Positions 1 to 52,706 of a DNA stretch of 64,000 nucleotides are shown one piece after another. The translations under genes were made by a program, and so were the position numbers. Origin of the DNA: an uncultured Chloroflexia bacterium. Its GTDB lineage: Bacteria; Chloroflexota; Limnocylindria; Limnocylindrales; CSP1-4. Each line of letters starts with the position of its first letter. Within the stretch, counting starts at the first letter, position 1. Under the pieces are notes generated by a model. It was not told where the DNA came from and did no database searches. It saw only the letters and a program-made list of their open reading frames with translations. Where the stretch lies: contig CAVWSL010000015.1 in NCBI GenBank assembly GCA_963757765.1, forward strand, positions 658,922-722,921. Reading direction: 5' to 3'.

Positions 1-1211
1 CGCGGTGGAGCGAGCCGTGTCGGTGTTCGGCACGGATGGCGACTGGGCGCGCGTCTATCGGCGCCACGGCCGGCCGTGGCGCCTGGGCGAACCGGTGCGT
101 CTGGTCGCGCTGGCCCGGACCCTGCGGATCATCGCCGCCGACGGACCTGCGGTGCTGTACACCGGGGCGCTCGCACGGCGAGCAGCCGCCTACCTCGAGG
201 GTGCCGGATCGACCTGTCCGCCTCCCCGACCTCTCGGCCCATCGATCGGACTGGGGCACCCCCATCGGCACCACGTATCGGGGGCTCACGTCCATCAGCC
301 ACCCGCCCAACAGCTGCGGCGTGGTGGCCCTCGAGACGCTGGCCATCCTCGATCACCTCCAGCCACCGCCTGCGTCCGACTTCGATGGCCTCGGGGTCGC
401 TGATGCGGGCTGGGTGCACCTGGGACTGGAGGCTTCCCGGCTGGCCCTCGCGGATCGGGACCGCTGGCTGACGGACCTCGACGCGATGGAGTCGGGCTCG
501 CCCGACCGGTTCCTCGACCGCGACCGGGCCAGGGTCCTGGCTGCATCCATCGACCCCGACCGTATCGGGACGCTGGGGCCCTCCACCATGCCCGGCGGCG
601 GAGGCACGGTCTACCTGTGTGCCGCTGACCGTGATGGCGGCGCGGTCAGCCTCATCGAGTCGAACTACGCCGGGTTCGGCTCCGGTCTCGTCGATCCCGC
701 GACCGGCGTCAGCTACCAGAACCGGGGTGCGTTCTTCCGGCTGGACGCCGGACACGCCAACGCATTGGCGCCCCGGAGACGGACCCTCCACACGCTCACG
801 CCGGGGATGCTGCTGCGTGATGGACGGCCGTGGATCATCCACGGGTCGATGGGCGGCGAGATCCAGCCCCAGGTGTTCGCGCAGGTCGTCTCGGCGATCG
901 TCGACGGCGGGGTCGACATCGCCACGGCCGTTGGCGCCCCGCGGTGGGCTGCGGACGTGCCACGACACCTTGGCCCGCCGTCACTGACCGTGCTCGAGTC
1001 GCGCTATCGGCCCGAGGTCGTGGCCGGTCTTCGGGATCGCGGCCATGACCTGCGGCTCATCGACCCCTGGTCATCGTCGATGGGCCATGCCCACGCCATC
1101 GAGCTCGTCCGGGACGTCGGAGCGGGGGGCCCGGCATCGGCAGACGGCTCGACACTGACGTTCGCGGCGACGACCGATCCACGCTCGGAGGGCCTGCCGG
1201 GCGCCTGGTAG
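1..1211 (+). CDS. ggt: gamma-glutamyltranspeptidase (Ntn-hydrolase), 5' end outside the window; reading frame switches from frame 2 to frame 3 at a CCCC run near 224-227 (frameshift or indel error)
   Basis: Frame 2 (5..403) reads the GGT-like stretch LARTLRIIAADGPAVLYTG...AYLEGAGS. Frame 3 (36..1211) continues with TTYRGLTSISHPPNSCGV and the GGT nucleophile region GTVYLCAADRDGGAVSLIESNYAGFGSG. The two frames join at cctcccc (221-227). Confidence 0.8.
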   Translation, partial: RWSEPCRCSARMATGRASIGATAGRGAWANRCVWSRWPGPCGSSPPTDLRCCTPGRSHGEQPPTSRVPDRPVRLPDLSAHRSDWGTPIGTTYRGLTSISHPPNSCGVVALETLAILDHLQPPPASDFDGLGVADAGWVHLGLEASRLALADRDRWLTDLDAMESGSPDRFLDRDRARVLAASIDPDRIGTLGPSTMPGGGGTVYLCAADRDGGAVSLIESNYAGFGSGLVDPATGVSYQNRGAFFRLDAGHANALAPRRRTLHTLTPGMLLRDGRPWIIHGSMGGEIQPQVFAQVVSAIVDGGVDIATAVGAPRWAADVPRHLGPPSLTVLESRYRPEVVAGLRDRGHDLRLIDPWSSSMGHAHAIELVRDVGAGGPASADGSTLTFAATTDPRSEGLPGAW

Positions 1212-1350: not shown

Positions 1351-1644
1351 TTGAGCTCCAACATCAGCCAGAGCTACCCCGCCGGCAGCGAGACCGAAAC
1401 ACAGCGAGCGGCTGCTGTGGAACGCGCGTTCGGCGCCTTCGATGGGCTGCGCGACAAGGTCGCCGCGGAGACCTCGCCACTCGGCGAGGTCCAGGACGCG
1501 GACCACGGCGCGCCGGCGCGCTGGTGGATCTGGGTCTGTCCCAAGGGGGACTTCACGGGCCGTCTGCACGTGGCCGGCTATGCCCTGGAGCGACATGGCC
1601 TATACGCGGTCTGCGACACGCACGGGGACACGTACCTCCGATAG
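1351..1644 (+). CDS. hypothetical small protein (97 aa), TTG start
   Basis: Intact ORF in the gap between ggt and the convergent M20 peptidase gene, with a weak GGAG upstream. No recognisable domain. Confidence 0.3.
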   Translation: MSSNISQSYPAGSETETQRAAAVERAFGAFDGLRDKVAAETSPLGEVQDADHGAPARWWIWVCPKGDFTGRLHVAGYALERHGLYAVCDTHGDTYLR

Positions 1645-1742: not shown

Positions 1743-2957
1743 TCAGGACCGGGCGCGGCGCTCCGCTGACCACCCGGCAACGACCGGGTCGCGCCCGAGC
1801 GCAAGGATGAGACCGGCGAGCAACGCGGTCCGGGGCACGATGGAGTCGACCTCGAGGTATTCGGCGGGCGAGTGGTCGCTGCCACCGATGGGCCCCAGCC
1901 CATCGATCGACGGCACGCCCATCCCAGCCGTGGTGTTCGCATCCGAGGCGCCGCCGGTGGCCGCATCCCGGAGCTCGAAACCAAGGCCCGCGGCTACCGC
2001 CACCGCGTGGTCGACGAGCCGCCCGGACCGCTCCAGCTTCTCCATGGGCCAGAAGCGACCCATGATGCTCACCTCGCACGTGGTGTCGGGGACCGTGGTC
2101 GACGCCGCGATGTCCCTGACCGCCGCCTCGGCGTGCTCGAGGGTTGCGCGCCGGACCGAGCGCAGGTCCACCTGGACGATCGTCTCGGCGGCGACCACGT
2201 TCGGGCGAGTGCCCCCGCGGACCACCCCGGCATTGACCGTGACGCCCGGCCACCGGCCGTTGAGGGCGTGCAGCGCGACGATCTTGTGGGCCGCCTCCAG
2301 GATGGCGCTGCGTCCCTTCTCGGGTTCGACGCCGGCGTGTGCCGCGCGCCCGGTGATCCGAAGCTCCAAGTCCGCGATGCCCTTGCGGGAGCTCACGATG
2401 TCCCCGTTGGCGCGCGCCCCTTCCATGACGAGCGCCACGTCCACGGTCGCGGCATGCGCCCGGATGACCGGCGTGCTGACGGGGGATCCGATCTCCTCGT
2501 CGGGGTTGGCCACGAAGACGATGCGACCGAAGGGCAGCGGACCGAACGCCTTGAGGATCCTGAGTGCGTACAGCCCGGCGAGGAGACCGCCCTTCATGTC
2601 CGACACCCCCGGCCCCGTGGCGATGCCGTCGCTGATCCGGAACGGTCGCTCGGCCACCGTGCCGGGGTCGAACACCGTGTCGATGTGACCGATCATCAGT
2701 AACGCCGCTCCCTCGGCTTCGCCCAGGACCCCCACCACGGTATCCCCATGATCGGCGTTCGGAACGACCTCCACCAGGGCGCCGAGGCCCCGGAACGTCT
2801 CCGCGACCCATCGCCCGACCTCGTCGACGCCAGGCTTTGTGTACGACCCGCAGTCGATGTCCACGAGGCGCTGGAGATCCGCGAGGAACGCCGGCAGCTG
2901 CGCGGTCATGAGCCTGGTGAGCCGATCGAGGTCGGCGGGATCGACGTGCTGGGCCAT
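1743..2957 (-). CDS. M20 family metallopeptidase (carboxypeptidase G2 / ArgE / DapE-like)
   Basis: Motifs HIDTVF, GVSDMKGG, NPDEEIGS and the dimerisation-domain pattern are typical of M20 peptidases. Start taken at the internal MAQHVDPADL; the upstream part of the ORF is low-complexity. Confidence 0.85.
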   Translation of the reverse strand: MAQHVDPADLDRLTRLMTAQLPAFLADLQRLVDIDCGSYTKPGVDEVGRWVAETFRGLGALVEVVPNADHGDTVVGVLGEAEGAALLMIGHIDTVFDPGTVAERPFRISDGIATGPGVSDMKGGLLAGLYALRILKAFGPLPFGRIVFVANPDEEIGSPVSTPVIRAHAATVDVALVMEGARANGDIVSSRKGIADLELRITGRAAHAGVEPEKGRSAILEAAHKIVALHALNGRWPGVTVNAGVVRGGTRPNVVAAETIVQVDLRSVRRATLEHAEAAVRDIAASTTVPDTTCEVSIMGRFWPMEKLERSGRLVDHAVAVAAGLGFELRDAATGGASDANTTAGMGVPSIDGLGPIGGSDHSPAEYLEVDSIVPRTALLAGLILALGRDPVVAGWSAERRARS

Positions 2958-2967
2958 GATCCCGAGT

Positions 2968-4242
2968 CTAGACGTCGGACGACCCGAACATGGCCGCCGC
3001 TGCGATACCTGATCGGACCGCGCCCTCCACGCATGGCTGCACCAGCCAGTCGCCCGCGAAGACGATCGGCGGACGCTGCTGGATCTGCCGGATGCGTGCG
3101 TGGTACCCGACACCGACTCGCGGCACCGCGTGACGCCACCTCACGATGTGCACGATCTCCGCCGATGCCAGCGGGAAGAGCCGCCCATCGATCCGCGAGC
3201 CGGCCTCCCAGAGCTCGGCCGCGAGGTCTTCATCGGAGAGGTCGAGCAAGCGGCCGCTCGAGGCCGCGGGGGCGCAGAGCAGTGCCCACTCCCAGCCGAC
3301 CGGGACACGGCCCCACGAACCGTCCCCTCCGGAACCGAGCTCGACCGTGGCGACGGTCTCATTCGGGAATGCGTGGATGCCGGAGCGCGGTAGGCCGATG
3401 CCCCGTCGGGCCAGATAGAGGCGGACATGCGGCGCGTACTCGATGTCCGCCACCGCCGTCGGGAGCGCTTCCCGGGCCACGATGCGCGCGGCGACCGGTG
3501 CCGGGACGGCGACGATGGCGCCGTCATACGACTCCTCGACGCCATCCACTATGATCTGCGCGCCTCCAGCCAGCGGCGCGACTCGTTCCACGGTCGCGCC
3601 AGCGCGAACACCCAGTCGCTCGCCGAGGTGCCGCCACGGGCTGTCCATGCCACCGTCCACGGTGTAGAACGTGCCGACCGACAGCGCCCGCATCCATGAG
3701 CGGACCAGGGCGGCAGACAGCTCCTGGAGGCGCGAGAAGAACGGCCCCTCGAACGATGGCCGGACCACCCACTGGGTCGCCGCGGCTCCGGCAGCGCGAA
3801 GGGCGTCCTCCGCGCTCTGCGCATCGTCGCGCTGGTCGATCCGGAGGTTGCCCGGTCGGGTCAGGAACAACCGAGCCATCCAGGTGAGGAATCGCAGCTG
3901 GTCCCCAGGGGACAGCAGGTCGGTGGTCAGGATCCGCCGCACCGAGTTGGGATTGGGGTGCAGTCGACCCTCCACGAGCAGGTCGCCGCCCCCTCGCAGA
4001 TGGAGGACCTGGAGGCGATCCCGAAGGCCGAGGTCCTGCAGCAGCTCGAGCGTGTCGGGGTAGAACGAGCCGAGCCAGCCCGCGCCATCATCGCTCCAGT
4101 GGCCCGGGCCGAAGTGCTGGGTGTGGGTCCGTCCGCCGGCCTCGGGCCCCGATTCCAGCACGATGGGCTCGTGGCCCGCTGCACGGAGTCGATAGGCGGC
4201 CGTGAGGCCCGCGGGGCCCGCTCCGACGACAGCGATGCGCAC
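2968..4242 (-). CDS. FAD-dependent oxidoreductase (protoporphyrinogen oxidase / amine oxidase-like)
   Basis: N-terminal Rossmann dinucleotide motif MRIAVVGAGPAGLTAAYRL...VLESGPEAGGR at ~420 aa. Lies directly upstream of the M20 gene, so probably an operon. Confidence 0.8.
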   Translation of the reverse strand: MRIAVVGAGPAGLTAAYRLRAAGHEPIVLESGPEAGGRTHTQHFGPGHWSDDGAGWLGSFYPDTLELLQDLGLRDRLQVLHLRGGGDLLVEGRLHPNPNSVRRILTTDLLSPGDQLRFLTWMARLFLTRPGNLRIDQRDDAQSAEDALRAAGAAATQWVVRPSFEGPFFSRLQELSAALVRSWMRALSVGTFYTVDGGMDSPWRHLGERLGVRAGATVERVAPLAGGAQIIVDGVEESYDGAIVAVPAPVAARIVAREALPTAVADIEYAPHVRLYLARRGIGLPRSGIHAFPNETVATVELGSGGDGSWGRVPVGWEWALLCAPAASSGRLLDLSDEDLAAELWEAGSRIDGRLFPLASAEIVHIVRWRHAVPRVGVGYHARIRQIQQRPPIVFAGDWLVQPCVEGAVRSGIAAAAMFGSSDV

Positions 4243-4298: not shown

Positions 4299-6056
4299 GT
4301 GCGACTCGTCGAGATCAGACTCCTGGACGGCCCCAACGTGTACCGGCTCGAGCCGACCGTGAAGGTCGAGGTCGCGGTCGGCCGTCGCCGGACGTGGTTC
4401 GGCCAGCGACTGCCCGGGACCCACGCGAGGGTCCGCCTGGGAGCGTCGGTCCCGCGGAGCGCAGCGCCCCGGTCCGTGGCGGACCTCGCCGGATGGATCA
4501 GGTCGCTCCACCGACTCTCGGACGCCGACGCCTGGCTGGTCGACGAGGGACGCGCCACATCCCGGTCACGTGCCCGGATGCCGGTGCACATCCATCGCAC
4601 GTCGGAACCGGGTGTCTGGGTCGTCGCCTACCCGTGGCGCGAGGATGGCCGCGCACGGGTGATCGCGGAGGCCGCCCTGCGTCTCGTGGAGCTGGACCTG
4701 GATCCGCATGCGACCCGACCCGCCACCCGACGGACCGCTGGCCGCCGCGGCCGATCCCGGACGCTCGCCCGCGCGCTCCGCACCATCGGTGACGCAGGTA
4801 CCGGACATCCGGCCTGGATCCACGATCCGGAACGGCGGATCCCCGCCATCAGCATCAGTGGCACGAACGGCAAGACGACGACGACCAGGATGATCGGCCA
4901 CGTCCTGCGCCAGGGCGGCCGGCACGTGGGCATGACGACCTCCGACGGGGTCCTGTTCGACGACCGGATGGGCGAATCGGGTGACCTCACCGGCCCGTAT
5001 GGGGCGCGCCTGGTGCTCGCCGACCCTGGGGTGGACGTGGCCGTGCTCGAGACCGCGCGTGGCGGCATGATGCTCCGTGGGGTCGGCTACGAGTCGAACG
5101 ATGCCTCGGTCATCACCAACATCAGCTCCGACCACATGGACCTGTACGGTATCCATACCCTGCCGGAGTTGGCCGAAGTCAAGTCGGTCATCAGCCGGAT
5201 CACGCGGCCGAAAGGCGTCGTGGTGCTCAACGCGGACGACCCGCTCGTGGTAGCCATGGCGCGTCATGTCGGGGCCCCCGTGTGGTGGTTCTCGATGCTC
5301 CCTCGATCCGAGCGTGTCCGACGCCACCTGGCGCGCGGCGGTCGCGCCTTTGTCATCGATGACGGACTCCTGGTCGAGTGCGAAGGCAAGGAACGCCGGC
5401 TGTTGGTCGCGGTCACGGATATCCCCGCGACGCTCCACGGCCTCGCACGCCACAACGTCGCGAACGCCCTGGCCGCCGCTGCCGGCGCACGCGCGATGGG
5501 CGCCACGCTCGCGGAGGTCGGTGCCGGGCTCCGCGACTTCGGCACCACCGGCGGCCAGCGCAACGGCCGACTGGATCTGTATCGCCGGGACGCGACCGTC
5601 GTCATCGTCGACTTCGCCCACAACGAGGCGGGGGTCCGCGCCGTCCTCGATGTCGCCCAGGGACTCATCGGCGACCGCGCCGCACGCGCCGGTCAGCGGG
5701 CACTGACCATCGTCGTGGGCACCGCCGGCGACCGACCCGACGACACCCTGCGGGGCATAGCACGCATCTCGGCGGAGCTCGCCGATCGGGTGGTCATCAA
5801 GGAGACGCTCGACTACCTGCGGGGACGGACCCGGGAGTCGATCGTGGGCGAGCTGCGCGCGGGCATCACGGCCGGTGGCGGAGTCGGTCGCCACGCCGTC
5901 CTGTACCACGATGAGCCATCCGCTGTCCGGGGTGAGCTCGACGACGCGGGACTGCTGGCACCGGACAGCCTGCCGGGTGCGCTCGTGGTCATGTGTCACG
6001 AGGATCGGGCCGGCGTCGTCACCGCGCTCCGGGAGCGCGGCTTCGAGCCAGCCTGA
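4299..6056 (+). CDS. cyanophycin synthetase-like protein with CphA N-domain fused directly to a Mur-ligase (M) domain; the ATP-grasp (G) domain is absent
   Basis: N-terminus MRLVEIRLLDGPNVY parallels the CphA N-domain of the neighbouring gene (LRVLETRVLRGPNVW). From residue ~175 onward (ISISGTNGKTTTTRMIGHVLRQGG...TSDHMDLYGIHT...NADDP...HNVANALAAAA) it aligns with the M-domain of the adjacent 939-aa CphA. No ATP-grasp segment lies between the two domains. Confidence 0.8.
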   Translation: MRLVEIRLLDGPNVYRLEPTVKVEVAVGRRRTWFGQRLPGTHARVRLGASVPRSAAPRSVADLAGWIRSLHRLSDADAWLVDEGRATSRSRARMPVHIHRTSEPGVWVVAYPWREDGRARVIAEAALRLVELDLDPHATRPATRRTAGRRGRSRTLARALRTIGDAGTGHPAWIHDPERRIPAISISGTNGKTTTTRMIGHVLRQGGRHVGMTTSDGVLFDDRMGESGDLTGPYGARLVLADPGVDVAVLETARGGMMLRGVGYESNDASVITNISSDHMDLYGIHTLPELAEVKSVISRITRPKGVVVLNADDPLVVAMARHVGAPVWWFSMLPRSERVRRHLARGGRAFVIDDGLLVECEGKERRLLVAVTDIPATLHGLARHNVANALAAAAGARAMGATLAEVGAGLRDFGTTGGQRNGRLDLYRRDATVVIVDFAHNEAGVRAVLDVAQGLIGDRAARAGQRALTIVVGTAGDRPDDTLRGIARISAELADRVVIKETLDYLRGRTRESIVGELRAGITAGGGVGRHAVLYHDEPSAVRGELDDAGLLAPDSLPGALVVMCHEDRAGVVTALRERGFEPA

Positions 6057-6063
6057 GCGACGC

Positions 6064-8883
6064 TCAGCCCTCCGGGACGGACAACTCCCCGGGCGCCGTG
6101 ATCGCGATGCCGGCTCCCCGGTCGTAGGCCATGGCCGCTCGGTAGACCTGGGTCGAATCGTCCGCGCAGATGACCACCAGGTCGCCCGGATGCGCCCGCC
6201 GCATGCCCGCCTCGGCCGCCTCAAGCTCATCGAGGACGGCGACCGCCCGGGCACAGCGCGCTCCGGCCGCCCGTGCCTCGTGGATGCCCTCAAGCACGTT
6301 CGCGGCACTCTCGCCCGGCTTTCGGCCGCGGAGGTTCTTGTCCTCGCGGACGTAGATCTCGTCGAAGGAGGCCGCTGCCAGGGCGCCATATCCCAGCTGG
6401 TCCTCGTCTCGCCGGTCACCCGGGATGCCGATGATGCCGATCGCCCGCCCGTGCCGCTCGCCCGGGTTCGCCACCTGGCCCGACTTGGCGTCGCGACGTC
6501 CACGTCTGCCGGCGCCGGTCATGGTCAGGTCCACGAACTCGCCCAGGCGGCGCATGCCATCGACGTTGTGGCAATAGTCGATGATGACCTTGAAGCCACG
6601 GACATCCACCTCGTTGAGGCGGCCGGGCGCCTGGAAGAACGAGGTGCTGAACGTCCGCAGCCCCTGCCGGATGTCGTGGAGATGCGCGCCGGTGGCCCAG
6701 GCAGCGGCGGCGGCGGCCAACGCGTTGGCCACATTCATGCGGGCCCGCCCATCGAGCGTGGCCGGGATGAGGTGGGAGTGGATGAGGGGCATCGTCCGGG
6801 GGCCCTGCCGGAGTGCCAGCAGCTCCCCGTCGTCGGTCTCGAGGATGACCATCGCGGCACCACCGCGACCGCAGTGGCCATCGACCCGGTCGAACCCCTC
6901 CTCCCCCTTGCGTGTCTGCATCGAGAAGTAGATGACCCGGCCATCGGACTGGCGCGCCATCCGGGCCACGAGCGGGTCGTCCGCGTTGAGCACCGCGGTG
7001 CCGTTGCGGGGCACGGCGTCCACGAGGACGCTCTTCACGGCCGCCAGCTGAGCGACCGTGTCGATGCCGTGGAGGCCCAGGTGGTCGCCGGTCACGTTGG
7101 TGACCACGGCGACATCATTCCGGTCGTAGCCCAGGCCCTCACGCAGCAGGCCACCACGGGCGACCTCGAACACCGCGGTGTCGACGAGCGGGTTCTGGAG
7201 GACGGTCCGGGCCGATCGGGGACCGCTCATGTCGCCTTTGCGGGTGAGGCGGCCGTCGATGACGATGCCGTCGGTCGTGGTCATGCCCACCCGGCGACCC
7301 ATGAGCTTGAGGATGTGGGCGATCATCCGGACCGTGGTCGTCTTGCCGTTGGTGCCCGTCACGCCGATGATCGGGATGCGCGCGTTGGAGCCAGCCGGGA
7401 ATAGCAGGTCGATCACCGGCTTGGCCACGTACTGCGGCTCGCCCTCGGTGGGATGGGTGTGCATCCGGAAACCTGGCGCGGCGTTGACCTCCACGATCGC
7501 ACCGCCCTGCTCGCGGATGGGCACGCCGATGTCGGGCACGACCATGTCGATGCCCGCGATGTCGAGTCCGACGACCTGTGCCGCGGTCTCCGCGATCTCG
7601 ATGTTCTCGGGGTGCGTCTCCATCGTCCGGTCGATGGCTGTGCCGCCAGTGGACATGTTGCCCGTGAGCGCGAGCTGGACACGGGTGCCCGCGTCGGGCA
7701 CCGAATCGGGCGTGTAACCCTGCTTCGCGATGAGCTCCAGGGCGGCGTCTTCGAGCCGGATGCGGGTGAGCACCTTCTCATGGCCGAAGCCGCGCCGCGG
7801 ATCGGCGTTCTCGAGGTCGACCAACTCGCGCACCGTGTGGGTTCCGTCCGCATCGACGCCGGCCGGCATACGTTCCGCGATGGCGACCATCCGGCCCCCG
7901 ATGATGAGCGCCCGATGGTCGGCGCCATGGACGTAGGTCTCGACCACGACGTCACCACCGCGGCTCTCGCGGAGGGCGATGGGGAACGCCTTGCGGACAT
8001 CCTCCTCGGAGCGCAGATCGAGACAGACGCCTCGGCCGTGATTGCCGTCGAGCGGCTTGACCACCACGGGATAGCCGATAGACCGCGCGGCGGCCACCGC
8101 ATCCTCATCGGTGTCCACGGTCTCCGAACGCGGCACCGGCAGGCCGGCCGCAGCCAGCAGCTGGTTCGTGAGCGCCTTGTCGGACGCGATGTCGACGGCG
8201 ATGGCCGACGTCTGGGACGTCATCGTCGCCCGGATGCGCTGCTGGTACTTTCCCTGCCCGAGCTGCACCAGGCTGTGGCGATCGAGCCGGATCCAGGGGA
8301 TGTCCCGCGACACCGCCTCATCGATGATGGCCTGCGTCGAGGGGCCGAAGGCGGACCGCTCCGCGATCCGGATGAGGCGCTCCAAGGCGGCCGGCAGGTC
8401 GAGATATGTCCCCGGATCGTCGGGCGCGACGAGGAAGTTGACGAGCGCCACCGCGATGCGGCCGGCCTCGAGCCCGACCTGCTCCTCGCGGTACTCGTAG
8501 ATGACCTCGTAGTGTCCGGTGCTGCCCGAGGAGCGCGTCTTGCCGATGCGCACCTCCGTCCCCGCGAGGCACTGGAGCTCGAGCGCGATGTGCTCCGCGA
8601 CGTGGCCCATCCAGGTGCCATCGGCGAGGCGGCTGAAGAACCCACCCCGCCGACCCAGCGAGCATGCGTGCTCCTCCATCGTCGGCAGCAGCTCGATGAG
8701 CGCCTCGTTGAAGCCCGGGATGGTGTTCGAGGGGTACTGCTCCAGGACGCCGAGGTCGACCGACATCCGGATGACTGGCTTTTTGACCCACACATTGGGA
8801 CCCCGGAGCACGCGGGTCTCGAGCACGCGCAGGGTCGGCACCAGCGGTGGCAGCGGCTCGACCGTCGGCTTGGGGTCCGGCAT
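6064..8883 (-). CDS. cphA: cyanophycin synthetase CphA, full length (N, ATP-grasp G and Mur-ligase M domains)
   Basis: 939 aa. N-domain at the start. ATP-grasp region: KALTNQLLAAAGLPVP...GYPVVVKPLDGNHGRGV. M-domain: IIGVTGTNGKTTTVRMIAHIL...TGDHLGLHGI...LNADDP. Sits directly downstream of cphB. Confidence 0.9.
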   Translation of the reverse strand: MPDPKPTVEPLPPLVPTLRVLETRVLRGPNVWVKKPVIRMSVDLGVLEQYPSNTIPGFNEALIELLPTMEEHACSLGRRGGFFSRLADGTWMGHVAEHIALELQCLAGTEVRIGKTRSSGSTGHYEVIYEYREEQVGLEAGRIAVALVNFLVAPDDPGTYLDLPAALERLIRIAERSAFGPSTQAIIDEAVSRDIPWIRLDRHSLVQLGQGKYQQRIRATMTSQTSAIAVDIASDKALTNQLLAAAGLPVPRSETVDTDEDAVAAARSIGYPVVVKPLDGNHGRGVCLDLRSEEDVRKAFPIALRESRGGDVVVETYVHGADHRALIIGGRMVAIAERMPAGVDADGTHTVRELVDLENADPRRGFGHEKVLTRIRLEDAALELIAKQGYTPDSVPDAGTRVQLALTGNMSTGGTAIDRTMETHPENIEIAETAAQVVGLDIAGIDMVVPDIGVPIREQGGAIVEVNAAPGFRMHTHPTEGEPQYVAKPVIDLLFPAGSNARIPIIGVTGTNGKTTTVRMIAHILKLMGRRVGMTTTDGIVIDGRLTRKGDMSGPRSARTVLQNPLVDTAVFEVARGGLLREGLGYDRNDVAVVTNVTGDHLGLHGIDTVAQLAAVKSVLVDAVPRNGTAVLNADDPLVARMARQSDGRVIYFSMQTRKGEEGFDRVDGHCGRGGAAMVILETDDGELLALRQGPRTMPLIHSHLIPATLDGRARMNVANALAAAAAAWATGAHLHDIRQGLRTFSTSFFQAPGRLNEVDVRGFKVIIDYCHNVDGMRRLGEFVDLTMTGAGRRGRRDAKSGQVANPGERHGRAIGIIGIPGDRRDEDQLGYGALAAASFDEIYVREDKNLRGRKPGESAANVLEGIHEARAAGARCARAVAVLDELEAAEAGMRRAHPGDLVVICADDSTQVYRAAMAYDRGAGIAITAPGELSVPEG

Positions 8884-8915: not shown

Positions 8916-9752
8916 TCAGCTGGACGCCACGGCGTCGGTATCGAGCGCTCGCAGCATCGGCGCGGCGACCCGGACCCGTCGCCGAAGGTCGAATCGGTAA
9001 CCCACGGGCAGCGAGTGGAGCACGACGTTGCTGATCATGATGGGTCGATGCGCACGCACCTCCCAGGCATCGGTCTCGGACGCCTGGCCGTCGACGATGG
9101 TGACGCTCCGGCGGCCGATGACCTCCATGACCATGTCCGGCGACACGACACCGCAGGTGTCTTCGTCGATGCCGAGGCCGAGCAGCGCCGGGTTCTGGGC
9201 GATGGTCGCGAGGAGGCGCCCGAGCCGGTTGCGCTGCTGGAAGTGCTGGTCGACGATCACCCCGGGCAGGACACCCAGGCCCGCGGCCATCTGGACCATC
9301 CGCTGCTTGGGCGTGCCGCCGCTCGCGCCGAACGCGACCATGTGGGTGCTCATGGCCGAGGCACCGGCGCTCGTGCCGGCCACCACCGAGCCGTGCCGGT
9401 GTCGATCCGCGATGGCCTGGGCGATGGCGGTGCCACCGATGGTCGACGAGAGCCGCAGCTGGTTGCCGCCGGTCATGAACACGCCGGTGGCGTCTCGCAC
9501 GATGCGCGCGGCGTGGTCGTCGTTCGCCTGCTCCCGGGTCGTCGCGTGGATGGGCGAGACCTGGGCCGCGCCAAGCTCCGTGAACACCTTGCGATACATC
9601 TCGCCCGCGAGCGGCCCCAGGGAGGAGGCACTGCTGATGACCGCGATGCGTGCGTCGGGACCACCGGCAAGGGCGACGAAGCGGGTCAGGATGACGCGCT
9701 CGCGAACCTTGTCCTCGGCGCCCCCGATGACCATGATGTGCCCTTCGGACAC
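8916..9752 (-). CDS. cphB: cyanophycinase (peptidase S51)
   Basis: Motifs VIGGAED, FMTGGNQ and GTSAGA (serine nucleophile) at ~278 aa, upstream of cphA on the same strand. Confidence 0.9.
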   Translation of the reverse strand: MSEGHIMVIGGAEDKVRERVILTRFVALAGGPDARIAVISSASSLGPLAGEMYRKVFTELGAAQVSPIHATTREQANDDHAARIVRDATGVFMTGGNQLRLSSTIGGTAIAQAIADRHRHGSVVAGTSAGASAMSTHMVAFGASGGTPKQRMVQMAAGLGVLPGVIVDQHFQQRNRLGRLLATIAQNPALLGLGIDEDTCGVVSPDMVMEVIGRRSVTIVDGQASETDAWEVRAHRPIMISNVVLHSLPVGYRFDLRRRVRVAAPMLRALDTDAVASS

Positions 9753-52631: not shown

Positions 52632-52706
52632 TGGTGAGCCGGGAAGGACTCGAACCTTCAACCAAGTGATTAAGAGTCACTTGCTCTGCCATTGAGCTAC
52701 CGGCCC
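52632..52706 (-). tRNA. tRNA-Lys (anticodon CTT), CCA encoded
   Basis: Minus strand reads GGGCCGGTAGCTCAATGGCAGAGCAAGTGACTCTTAATCACTTGGTTGAAGGTTCGAGTCCTTCCCGGCTCACCA. Seven-bp acceptor stem with one G-U pair, anticodon loop CUCUUAA, T-loop TTCGAGT. Confidence 0.85.

What the first reader, a model, noticed from the sequence alone, without database searches (positions are those of the whole stretch)
4299..6056. Cyanophycin-synthetase paralog that has lost the entire ATP-grasp (G) domain: N-domain fused directly to the Mur-ligase (M) domain
Canonical CphA1 is N+G+M and the known CphA2 variants are N+G with a truncated M. Here a 585-aa protein keeps a recognisable CphA N-domain (MRLVEIRLLDGPNVY..., parallel to the adjacent full-length CphA) and a complete-looking M-domain with the P-loop ISISGTNGKTTT. 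The ~330-aa G-domain that extends the Asp backbone is missing. The gene is convergent with, and 8 bp from, a canonical cphB-cphA operon, so both proteins are probably expressed together. An N+M enzyme could only perform the M-domain reaction (adding Arg/Lys to the beta-carboxyl of Asp). It might re-arginylate poly-Asp, modify or prime cyanophycin, or act on another substrate. I am not aware of a characterised member with this architecture.
Basis: partly seen in the sequence, partly recalled or inferred. Interest (0 to 1): 0.8.

Follow-up and report, generated by a model that had tools for sequence, protein, structure and literature searches.

The report
Cyanophycin-synthetase relative lacking the ATP-grasp domain
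Next to an ordinary cyanophycin synthetase/cyanophycinase gene pair lies an intact, conserved gene for a shorter relative that keeps only the polymer-holding N domain and the arginine-adding ligase domain; it belongs to a widespread family that no paper I could search describes, and it probably modifies the nitrogen-storage polymer cyanophycin.

Summary
ORF 4299-6056 (+) encodes 585 aa: a divergent CphA-type N domain (about 1-136), a short linker, and a complete Mur-ligase-type M domain (about 177-585). There is no ATP-grasp G domain. All Mur-ligase catalytic residues are conserved, including D278-H279, the pair whose mutation inactivates the M domain of Synechocystis CphA1.

It is not a remnant. 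dN/dS is 0.15-0.37 in both halves. More than 120 close homologues share the architecture, and 88 of the 150 best representative clusters are "short N + M".

In 15 of 16 informative loci (Chloroflexota, Methylomirabilota, Actinomycetota including cultured Terrabacter) the gene lies within 7 kb of an intact cphB-cphA, usually convergent. In most Chloroflexota-type loci a CPG2-like M20 hydrolase is transcribed divergently from it.

New points:
- The N domain has lost the Cx19HxxEH primer-cutting site.
- The N domain is strongly basic (median net +12, against -4 in CphA1).
- A rough M-domain tree places the family outside the CphA1 clade. "Lost the G domain" is therefore not shown.

Best reading (inferred): a stand-alone, in-trans side-chain ligase for cyanophycin-type chains. 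No curated family, solved structure or searchable paper covers it. New variant of a known kind. Interest 0.6.

The parts
4299..6056 (+). Gene for the 585-aa N+M (G-less) CphA-like ligase
   Evidence: ORF. Pfam Mur_ligase_M and Mur_ligase_C only. Matches TIGR02068 over the M half only. Family alignment A1. dN/dS 0.15-0.37.
4299..4706 (+). N domain (residues about 1-136). It has the CphA N-domain fold, is strongly basic, and lacks the Cx19HxxEH metallopeptidase motif.
   Evidence: BLASTP against CphA 18-154, E 6e-5. HHalign probability 92.6%. Foldseek alignment spans N and M of 7LGJ/7LGQ. Net charge and pI. Motif definition from PMC9262961.
4707..4826 (+). Arg-rich linker (residues about 137-176, with a helix at 154-165). 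It occupies the place where CphA1 has its roughly 330-aa G domain.
   Evidence: AF2 secondary structure and pLDDT above 90. Alignment A1. No ATP-grasp hit.
4827..6053 (+). M domain (residues about 177-585): Mur-ligase central (Mcore) and C-terminal (Mlid) domains, equivalent to SuCphA1 486-847
   Evidence: hmmsearch against PDB, E 3.5e-99 to 7LG5. 42% identity to the neighbouring CphA M domain. Conserved catalytic columns.
4848..4883 (+). P-loop ISISGTNGKTTT (residues 184-195)
   Evidence: Sequence. Invariant in A1 and shared with CphA1. Role of the Lys/Thr from PMC9427784.
5130..5135 (+). D278-H279, equivalent to SuCphA1 D585-H586
   Evidence: Alignment to the SuCphA1 sequence. The D585A/H586A mutant is M-inactive (PMC9262961).
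6064..8883 (-). Canonical cphA1 (939 aa, N+G+M). Cx19HxxEH is present and the M-domain catalytic motifs are intact.
   Evidence: TIGR02068 at 1133 bits against a cut-off of 850. Pfam. Motif check.
8916..9752 (-). cphB, cyanophycinase (278 aa)
   Evidence: TIGR02069 at 266 bits against a cut-off of 126.6. Peptidase_S51.
1743..3113 (-). M20 metallohydrolase, CPG2-like (glutamate carboxypeptidase-like). The true start is probably near 2942. It is a conserved upstream neighbour of the N+M gene in Chloroflexota and Methylomirabilota loci.
   Evidence: Pfam. NCBIfam best match PRK06133 at 295 bits, below its cut-off of 349. Synteny.
36..1211 (+). Gamma-glutamyltransferase-family gene, cut by the window edge. 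Part of the conserved block in the closer relatives.
   Evidence: NCBIfam TIGR00066, E 1.2e-47. Synteny in L001, L002, L083 and L084.

Best explanation
The gene encodes an active, ATP-dependent amide ligase. It is a free-standing copy of the "N + M" half of cyanophycin synthetase.

[quoted passage not shown] There the M domain phosphorylates the Asp side-chain carboxylate and joins the alpha-amino group of Arg to it. This protein retains that two-domain site. It has no ATP-grasp domain to extend the backbone and no metallopeptidase site to cut primers.

The most likely mechanism is that it works in trans on chains made by the neighbouring CphA1. It would attach an amino acid (Arg or a related one) to free carboxylates of the polymer. 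Its strongly basic N domain suggests a preference for acidic, Arg-poor stretches, so the role would be finishing, repairing or re-loading side chains.

Shown here: the architecture, the fold, the conservation of catalytic residues, purifying selection, and synteny with cphA-cphB. Inferred: catalytic activity, both substrates, and action in trans.
For: **No G domain; N and M arranged as in CphA1.**
- Domain searches find no ATP-grasp domain.
- The AF2 model is confident.
- Foldseek's best hits are whole CphA1 chains (7LGJ, 7WAE, 7LGQ, 7LG5), with E about 1e-37 and TM 0.74 on the query. MurE hits reach about 0.5.
- HHalign matches the N region to CphA1 N domains at 92.6% probability.

**Literature on CphA1.**
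- A hydrophobic N-domain loop contacts the M domain (PMC9262961). The corresponding GPN-loop is the best-conserved N-terminal motif shared by both protein types.

**Catalytic residues.** These residues are at least 90% conserved in 40 N+M and 78 CphA1 sequences: the P-loop, E251, N274, D278-H279, K295, N311, D314, G423-R424, D438/H441/N442, G477-D478-R479 and R508-G509.

**Selection and spread.**
- dN/dS is 0.15-0.37 in both the N and M parts.
- More than 120 homologues at 56-100% identity have the same length and architecture.

**Synteny.**
- cphA lies within 7 kb in 15 of 16 informative loci, from three phyla.
- The partner CphA1s keep all M-domain catalytic residues, so the protein is not a replacement for a dead M domain.

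**Charge.**
- The N region has a median net charge of +12 and pI 11.5. CphA1 N domains have -4 and pI 5.9. The protein's own M region is neutral.
- R300 replaces SuCphA1 E607, a residue that contacts the polymer.
Against: - No substrate was identified, and no biochemical data exist for any member.
- CphA1 is not known to leave unmodified Asp residues, so the proposed acidic substrate is hypothetical.
- In CphA1 the region aligned by eye (my own alignment from memory, not computed here) with the MurE DNPR motif, which selects the amino-acid substrate in MurE, reads KED(D/x)xRGR. In this family it reads KETxxYLRGR, and in Terrabacter KVARHYLRGR. The added amino acid therefore need not be Arg.
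- High Arg content is partly a trait of a genome with 70% G+C.
- One related subtype with an acidic N domain (L009) has no cphA within the 10 kb available.
- Convergent orientation gives no evidence of co-transcription.
Confidence: 0.5

Rival explanations
1. The protein is a cyanophycin-modifying ligase with different chemistry. It would add a non-Arg residue (Lys, Orn, Glu or Asp) to the Asp side chain, or extend the branch by ligating onto the free alpha-carboxylate of the side-chain Arg, much as Mur ligases extend a peptide stem. The product would be a decorated polymer.
For: - Sequence near the presumed amino-acid-selecting region differs from CphA1 and varies between subfamilies: KETxxYLRGR, or KVARHYLRGR in Terrabacter, against KEDDDKRGR or REDKNLRGR.
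- Discriminating positions include G235/S542, L259/R566 and E443/P750.
- The partner CphA1 already has a competent M domain, so a redundant activity seems less likely than a different one.
- A basic N domain would suit the many free carboxylates of the polymer.
Against: - No structural or biochemical evidence exists for a changed pocket.
- Several discriminating positions may simply be former G-domain interface residues.
- I know of no reported natural cyanophycin with extended branches (own knowledge).
Confidence: 0.2
2. The protein is a ligase for another acidic substrate that merely shares a neighbourhood with cphA. Candidates are another polyanion such as poly-gamma-glutamate, or a small molecule such as a dipeptide.
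For: - The very basic N domain fits any polyanion.
- A GGT-family gene is part of the conserved block in the closer relatives. My own knowledge is that this family includes poly-gamma-glutamate-processing CapD.
- The L009 subtype has no cphA nearby.
Against: - Linkage to cphB-cphA persists across Chloroflexota, Methylomirabilota and Actinomycetota. The other neighbours (GGT, M20) do not persist.
- The M domain is far closer to CphA (384 bits) than to any Mur ligase (116 bits or less).
- The N domain has the CphA fold, not a UDP-binding or CapB-type domain.
Confidence: 0.15
3. The protein is a non-catalytic accessory. It would be a scaffold or regulatory subunit that joins CphA1 oligomers or granules and tunes chain length.
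For: - In CphA1, Mcore forms oligomer contacts (PMC9427784).
- CphA2 shows that an M domain can persist without catalysis (PMC10273328).
- The Terrabacter orthologues carry a TPR protein-interaction domain.
Against: - Every ATP-binding, Mg-binding and catalytic residue is invariant across subfamilies that are only 35-40% identical.
- The inactive M domain of CphA2 is truncated, whereas this one is complete.
Confidence: 0.08
4. The ORF is a decaying remnant of a disrupted full-length cphA.
For: None beyond the shortened length.
Against: - The ORF is intact and its start agrees with homologues.
- dN/dS is well below 1.
- Hundreds of homologues share the architecture.
- The junction region is confidently structured in the model.
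Confidence: 0.01

Closest known systems
Cyanophycin synthetase 1 (CphA1; structures 7LG5, 7LGJ, 7LGQ, 7WAE)
   Same: - It has a homologous N domain and a complete M domain in the same mutual arrangement.
- The M-domain catalytic residues are identical.
- It is genomically linked to cphB.
   Different: - It has no ATP-grasp G domain, so it cannot extend the Asp backbone.
- The N domain lacks Cx19HxxEH and is strongly basic.
- It scores 384 bits against the 850-bit cut-off of TIGR02068.
- In a rough tree it lies outside the CphA1 clade.
Cyanophycin synthetase 2 (CphA2)
   Same: It is a CphA relative that has dispensed with one of the two ligase activities, and its N domain has no hydrolytic site.
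   Different: CphA2 keeps G and has a truncated, inactive M domain (PMC10273328). This protein is the reverse: it has no G domain and a complete, apparently active M domain.
MurE and other peptidoglycan Mur ligases (MurC-F, Mpl), pseudomurein ligases, MurT, CapB/PgsB, FolC
   Same: It has the Mur_ligase_M and Mur_ligase_C domains and the P-loop. From the family chemistry, it should share the acyl-phosphate mechanism that joins an amino group to a carboxylate.
   Different: - The N-terminal domain is of the CphA type, not the UDP-binding Mur domain 1.
- All scores are far below the family cut-offs.
- Its genomic context is cyanophycin genes, not a cell-wall (dcw) cluster.
Other G-less CphA relatives seen here (uncharacterised). 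These are "type B" proteins with an acidic N domain directly downstream of cphA1 (Plesiocystis, Acidobacteria), and N + G-stub + M proteins inside the CphA1 clade (Duganella and others).
   Same: They have a short N region followed by a complete CphA-type M domain, and they are linked to cphA1.
   Different: - The N regions differ in sequence and carry the opposite charge (net -15 to -23).
- They lie on the same strand as cphA1, immediately downstream.
- Their M domains are closer to CphA1.

Membership tests
CphA1 (cyanophycin synthetase 1) | N-terminal CphA N domain | tested here: met
   BLASTP E 6e-5. HHalign 92.6%. Foldseek alignment over N and M. Pfam PF18921 itself gives no hit.
CphA1 (cyanophycin synthetase 1) | ATP-grasp G domain that extends the Asp backbone | tested here: not met
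   No ATP-grasp family at E <= 0.1, while the neighbour hits eight. TIGR02068 is matched only from model position 475. Only about 40 residues separate N and M.
CphA1 (cyanophycin synthetase 1) | Complete Mur-ligase-type M domain with catalytic residues | tested here: met
   D278-H279 correspond to Su D585-H586.
CphA1 (cyanophycin synthetase 1) | Score at or above the curated cut-off of TIGR02068 or NF010623 | tested here: not met
   384 against 850 bits, and 332 against 877 bits.
CphA1 (cyanophycin synthetase 1) | Synthesis of cyanophycin from Asp, Arg and ATP | not testable with these tools
   Needs an enzyme assay.
CphA2 | N + G + truncated, inactive M domain | tested here: not met
   G is absent and M is full-length with intact motifs. 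Definition from PMC10273328.
Mur ligase superfamily | Mur_ligase_M and Mur_ligase_C domains with a GxxGKT P-loop | tested here: met
   Pfam 80.8 bits and 36.1 bits, both above the gathering thresholds.
Peptidoglycan Mur ligases (MurC-F) | N-terminal UDP-MurNAc-binding domain, and a score above the family cut-offs | tested here: not met
   The best match, murE TIGR01085, scores 106 against 257 bits. The alignments start at about residue 172, so the N region is unmatched. The N region has the CphA fold.
CphA1 N-domain primer-generating metallopeptidase | Cx19HxxEH motif | tested here: not met
   The motif is present in the neighbouring CphA at C74. The aligned stretch here reads WLV--DEGRA, with no Cys and no His pair. 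Motif from PMC9262961.

The most novel reading that the evidence does not exclude
The ligase and the divergently transcribed CPG2-like M20 hydrolase form a writer/eraser pair. Together they would load Arg onto a persistent poly-Asp backbone and strip it off again. That would be a second mode of cyanophycin nitrogen turnover that does not depolymerise the backbone.

A related reading: this old, diverse N+M lineage preserves the ancestral architecture, and CphA1 arose from it by insertion of an ATP-grasp domain.
Probability: 0.12. Interest if true: 0.8.

Novelty: new variant of a known kind. Interest (0 to 1): 0.6.

Why it matters
Cyanophycin metabolism is currently described with two synthetases, CphA1 and CphA2, plus cyanophycinase and dipeptidases.

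A third, widespread, conserved CphA-derived enzyme would add a step to that pathway if it is active. It consists only of the polymer-holding domain and the side-chain ligase, and it is syntenic with cphA-cphB in at least three phyla. The step could be side-chain finishing, repair, re-loading or decoration.

It would also offer a small, single-activity ligase for tailoring cyanophycin or poly-aspartate with chosen side chains. That is of interest for biopolymer engineering.

It bears on how the three-domain CphA1 machine was assembled in evolution.

Cultured hosts (Terrabacter aerolatus NBRC 106305, Terrabacter sp. BE26) carry orthologues, so the hypothesis can be tested directly.

Tried and rejected
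- **Pfam PF18921** did not detect the N domain. Homology had to be shown by BLASTP, HHalign and fold comparison.
- **The look-up of encoding contigs** had no record for the window's own protein. The source organism is therefore only inferred from its nearest relatives, which are Chloroflexota, Chloroflexia or Limnocylindrales MAGs.
- **The primary CphA1 structure paper** (Sharon 2021) is not held. I could not look up the residues that contact the polymer and Arg in the M site.
The conserved basic residues could not be mapped relative to the active site.
- **The afdb50 fold library** was unavailable.
- **The promoter scan** found nothing. A terminator-like hairpin inside the ORF (5330-5348) is taken as chance.
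- **Ten literature searches** found no description of a G-less CphA. "CphA3" refers only to an Aeromonas beta-lactamase.
- **Replacement for a dead M domain in the partner CphA1:** rejected, because all partner M motifs are intact.
- **Recent deletion derivative of the neighbour:** rejected, given 42% identity and the tree position.
- **Pseudogene:** rejected.
Full report
**1. What is there**

ORF 4299-6056 on the + strand (GTG start, 585 aa) begins MRLVEIRLLDGPNVY and contains ISISGTNGKTTT at residues 184-195.

Seven nucleotides past its stop codon, on the opposite strand, a 939-aa ORF ends (6064-8883). A 278-aa ORF precedes that one (8916-9752).
- The 939-aa protein is a full cyanophycin synthetase. 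It scores 1133 bits on TIGR02068 against a cut-off of 850, and it hits Pfam Cyanophycin_syn, several ATP-grasp families, Mur_ligase_M and Mur_ligase_C.
- The 278-aa protein is cyanophycinase (TIGR02069, Peptidase_S51).

The 585-aa protein hits only Mur_ligase_M (186-395) and Mur_ligase_C (423-544).
- It matches TIGR02068 only over model positions 475-860, at 384 bits.
- It has no ATP-grasp hit at E <= 0.1.

**2. Is the N-terminal part really a CphA N domain?**

Pfam's N-domain model does not see it. Three independent comparisons do.
- BLASTP aligns residues 1-136 with residues 18-154 of the neighbouring CphA (27% identity, E 6e-5).
- A profile of 30 family N regions matches a profile of 74 CphA1 N domains over 129 columns (HHalign probability 92.6%, E 4.6e-7).
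- An AlphaFold2 model built from the family alignment is confident (pLDDT 89.7, pTM 0.88). Its best PDB matches are whole CphA1 chains (7LGJ, 7WAE, 7LGQ, 7LG5).
  - These have E about 1e-37, with alignments of about 913 columns running from the N domain to the M domain and skipping G.
  - The TM-score is 0.74 normalised to the query. MurE-type ligases reach about 0.5.

So N and M have the CphA1 folds and roughly the CphA1 mutual arrangement. About 40 residues (137-176, Arg-rich, with a confident helix at 154-165) stand where CphA1 has its roughly 330-residue G domain.

**3. Is the M domain competent?**

The family profile aligns to SuCphA1 486-847 with E 3.5e-99.

I aligned 40 N+M sequences with 78 CphA1 M domains. 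The following residues are at least 90% conserved and identical in both groups:
- the P-loop G188-T195;
- E251, N274, D278-H279, K295, N311 and D314;
- G423-R424, D438/H441/N442, G477-D478-R479 and R508-G509.

D278-H279 correspond to SuCphA1 D585-H586, whose double mutation is used to inactivate the M domain (PMC9262961). The P-loop Lys, the Thr and the Glu correspond to the ATP/Mg ligands described for TeCphA1 (PMC9427784). The C-terminal lid domain is complete.

**4. Not a remnant, but a family**

- A search of 5.8 billion proteins returned more than 120 clusters at 56-100% identity. All are 560-645 aa except four shorter, apparently partial entries, and all have the same Pfam content. They come mostly from Chloroflexota and Limnocylindrales metagenome bins. 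NCBI names them "Mur ligase family protein" and JGI names them "cyanophycin synthetase".
- Invariant columns are spread over both the N and M parts.
- dN/dS against four homologues is 0.15-0.37 in both parts, although dS is close to saturation.
- A profile search of 1.84 billion representatives gave 88 "short N (120-260 aa) + M" proteins among the best 150, next to 25 full CphA1s.
- No NCBIfam model covers any subtype. All are best matched by the M half of cyanophycin synthetase, below the cut-off.
- No PDB entry has this architecture.

**5. Genomic context**

Seventeen loci carry a relative of this protein.

Fifteen of them, counting the window itself, have an intact or assembly-split cphA within 7 kb: the window, L001-L006, L008, L010, L017, L020, L022 and L082-L084.
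- cphA is usually convergent and less than 1 kb away.
- cphB lies beyond cphA wherever the locus extends that far; L006 and L082 end too early to show it.
- The hosts are labelled Chloroflexia/Chloroflexota, Methylomirabilota, Actinomycetota, and the cultured Terrabacter aerolatus NBRC 106305 and Terrabacter sp. BE26.
- Identities to the window protein fall as low as 35-40%.

The other two loci are exceptions. L007 is too short to judge. L009 (Sphaerobacteraceae, with an acidic N region) shows no cphA in the 10 kb available.

In the Chloroflexota and Methylomirabilota loci an M20 hydrolase is transcribed divergently from the N+M gene.
- Its best NCBIfam match is glutamate carboxypeptidase (CPG2-like), below the cut-off.
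- In the closer relatives a GGT-family gene and a conserved 97-aa ORF lie beyond it.
- These neighbours are absent from the Actinomycetota loci. The only universal partner is cphB-cphA.
- In the window alone, an amine-oxidase-like gene (2968-4242) is inserted between M20 and N+M.

The partner CphA1s keep every M-domain catalytic residue, so the N+M protein does not stand in for a dead M domain.

**6. How it differs from CphA1**

(a) The N-domain metallopeptidase motif is absent.
- The motif is Cx19HxxEH. It makes primers and is present in 83% of CphA1s (PMC9262961).
- It is present in the neighbouring CphA at C74.
- In the N+M protein the aligned stretch reads WLV--DEGRA.

(b) The N region is strongly basic.
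- It has a median net charge of +12 and pI 11.5 in 31 members. Terrabacter has +10.
- 74 CphA1 N domains have a median net charge of -4 and pI 5.9.
- The M regions of the same proteins are about neutral.
- The loop that is acidic in CphA1 (LEELEDYP-like) reads GRRRTW here.
- R300 is nearly invariant. It replaces SuCphA1 E607, one of two M-domain residues reported to contact the polymer.

(c) Positions that discriminate the two groups are G235/S542, L259/R566, T302/V609, E443/P750, V452/F759 and A495/F793. Some of these may be former G-domain interface positions.

(d) One stretch differs in a region that may select the amino-acid substrate.
- By my own alignment from memory, not computed here, it corresponds to the DNPR region that selects the amino-acid substrate in MurE.
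- It reads KETxxYLRGR here and KVARHYLRGR in Terrabacter. CphA1 has KEDDDKRGR or REDKNLRGR.
- The amino acid that is added may therefore differ.

**7. Evolution**

- The M domain is 42% identical to the neighbour's. It is 33-44% identical to CphA1s of other phyla and about 41% identical to the Terrabacter N+M.
- In a rough NJ tree of 149 M domains (no outgroup, no bootstrap), CphA1s form one clade.
- That clade also contains a few N + G-stub + M proteins, which look like independent G losses.
- "Type B" G-less proteins are sister to the CphA1 clade.
- The window's type, together with the related type that has an acidic N domain, lies outside.
- The gene is therefore not a recent deletion derivative of its neighbour. 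Whether the lineage lost G or never had it cannot be decided here.

**8. Mechanism**

[quoted passage not shown] The chain bound at that site lies between N and Mcore (PMC9427784, PMC9262961).

Shown here: this protein is exactly that N + Mcore + Mlid unit. It has intact catalytic residues, is under purifying selection, and is tied to cphA-cphB.

Inferred:
- It is an ATP-dependent ligase that acts in trans on cyanophycin-type chains and adds an amino acid to a free carboxylate.
- The basic N domain points to acidic, Arg-poor chains as the preferred substrate. The role would be finishing, repair or re-loading.
- The divergent CPG2-like hydrolase belongs to a family that cleaves N-acyl amino acids with a free alpha-carboxylate (own knowledge). 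It could be the matching hydrolase, acting on beta-Asp-Arg or on polymer side chains.

Rivals are listed separately: different chemistry on the same polymer, another acidic substrate, a non-catalytic partner, and a remnant.

**9. Novelty**

- Ten full-text searches found nothing on a G-less CphA.
- Reading the CphA1, CphA2 and bioinformatics papers found nothing either.
- The library lacks most subscription papers, including Sharon 2021 and older Steinbüchel surveys, so an earlier mention cannot be excluded.
- Members of the family are in public databases under generic names.

I rate it a new variant of a known kind: a CphA-derived enzyme with a new domain composition and probably a new role. 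It is of clear interest to the cyanophycin field but is not a new principle. Interest 0.6.

Noticed in passing
L033 from 11325 (+) (Plesiocystis pacifica SIR-1); L012 from 11054 (+) (Acidobacteria MAG); L018 from 3012 (+): A second G-less CphA-like subtype ("type B"). It has about 175-200 aa of strongly acidic N region starting ..DSRRLTGPN.., then a complete M domain. It lies directly downstream of cphA1 on the same strand. There are 22 representative clusters among the top 150. Its N region matches the CphA1 N domain only weakly (HHalign 78%).
   Followed up: partly
L017 2447-4630 (+) (Terrabacter aerolatus NBRC 106305); L022 (Terrabacter sp. BE26); representative P0154: The actinobacterial orthologues of the N+M ligase carry a C-terminal fusion of about 170 aa to a TPR_5 tetratricopeptide domain (E 4e-23). 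This hints at a protein partner.
   Followed up: partly
Representatives P0192, P0220, P0245, P0197, P0268; L073 (Duganella sp.), 701-aa ORF: These proteins fall inside the CphA1 clade. They have a CphA1-type N domain (some with HxxEH), only the first roughly 50-130 residues of G, and then the M domain. They look like independent partial losses of the ATP-grasp domain.
   Followed up: partly
window 1351-1644 (+): This 97-aa ORF follows the GGT-family gene. It has no NCBIfam hit, but it is conserved at the same position in L001, L083, L084 (62-75% identity) and L002.
   Followed up: partly
window 2968-4242 (-): An amine-oxidase/FAD-family gene lies between the M20 hydrolase and the N+M gene. Its weak best matches are HpnE and protoporphyrinogen oxidase, both below cut-off. 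None of the related loci has it, so it is probably a local insertion. Its ORF overlaps the long upstream extension of the M20 ORF (1743-3113).
   Followed up: partly
L001 11849-14669; L002 12239-15007; L003 12039-14768: In three metagenome-assembled relatives cphA is split into two or more reading frames. These are probably assembly frameshifts rather than real pseudogenes.
   Followed up: no
window 6064-8883 (-), CphA residues about 783-812: The window's CphA1 has an Arg/Gly-rich insertion in the M domain (LTMTGAGRRGRRDAKSGQVANPGERHGR). It is absent from the N+M protein and from SuCphA1.
   Followed up: no
window 5330-5348 (+): A terminator-like GC hairpin with a T-rich tail lies inside the N+M coding region. 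It is probably a chance match in a region with about 70% G+C.
   Followed up: no
window 52635-52706 (-): One tRNA gene is the only Rfam match in the whole 64-kb window.
   Followed up: no
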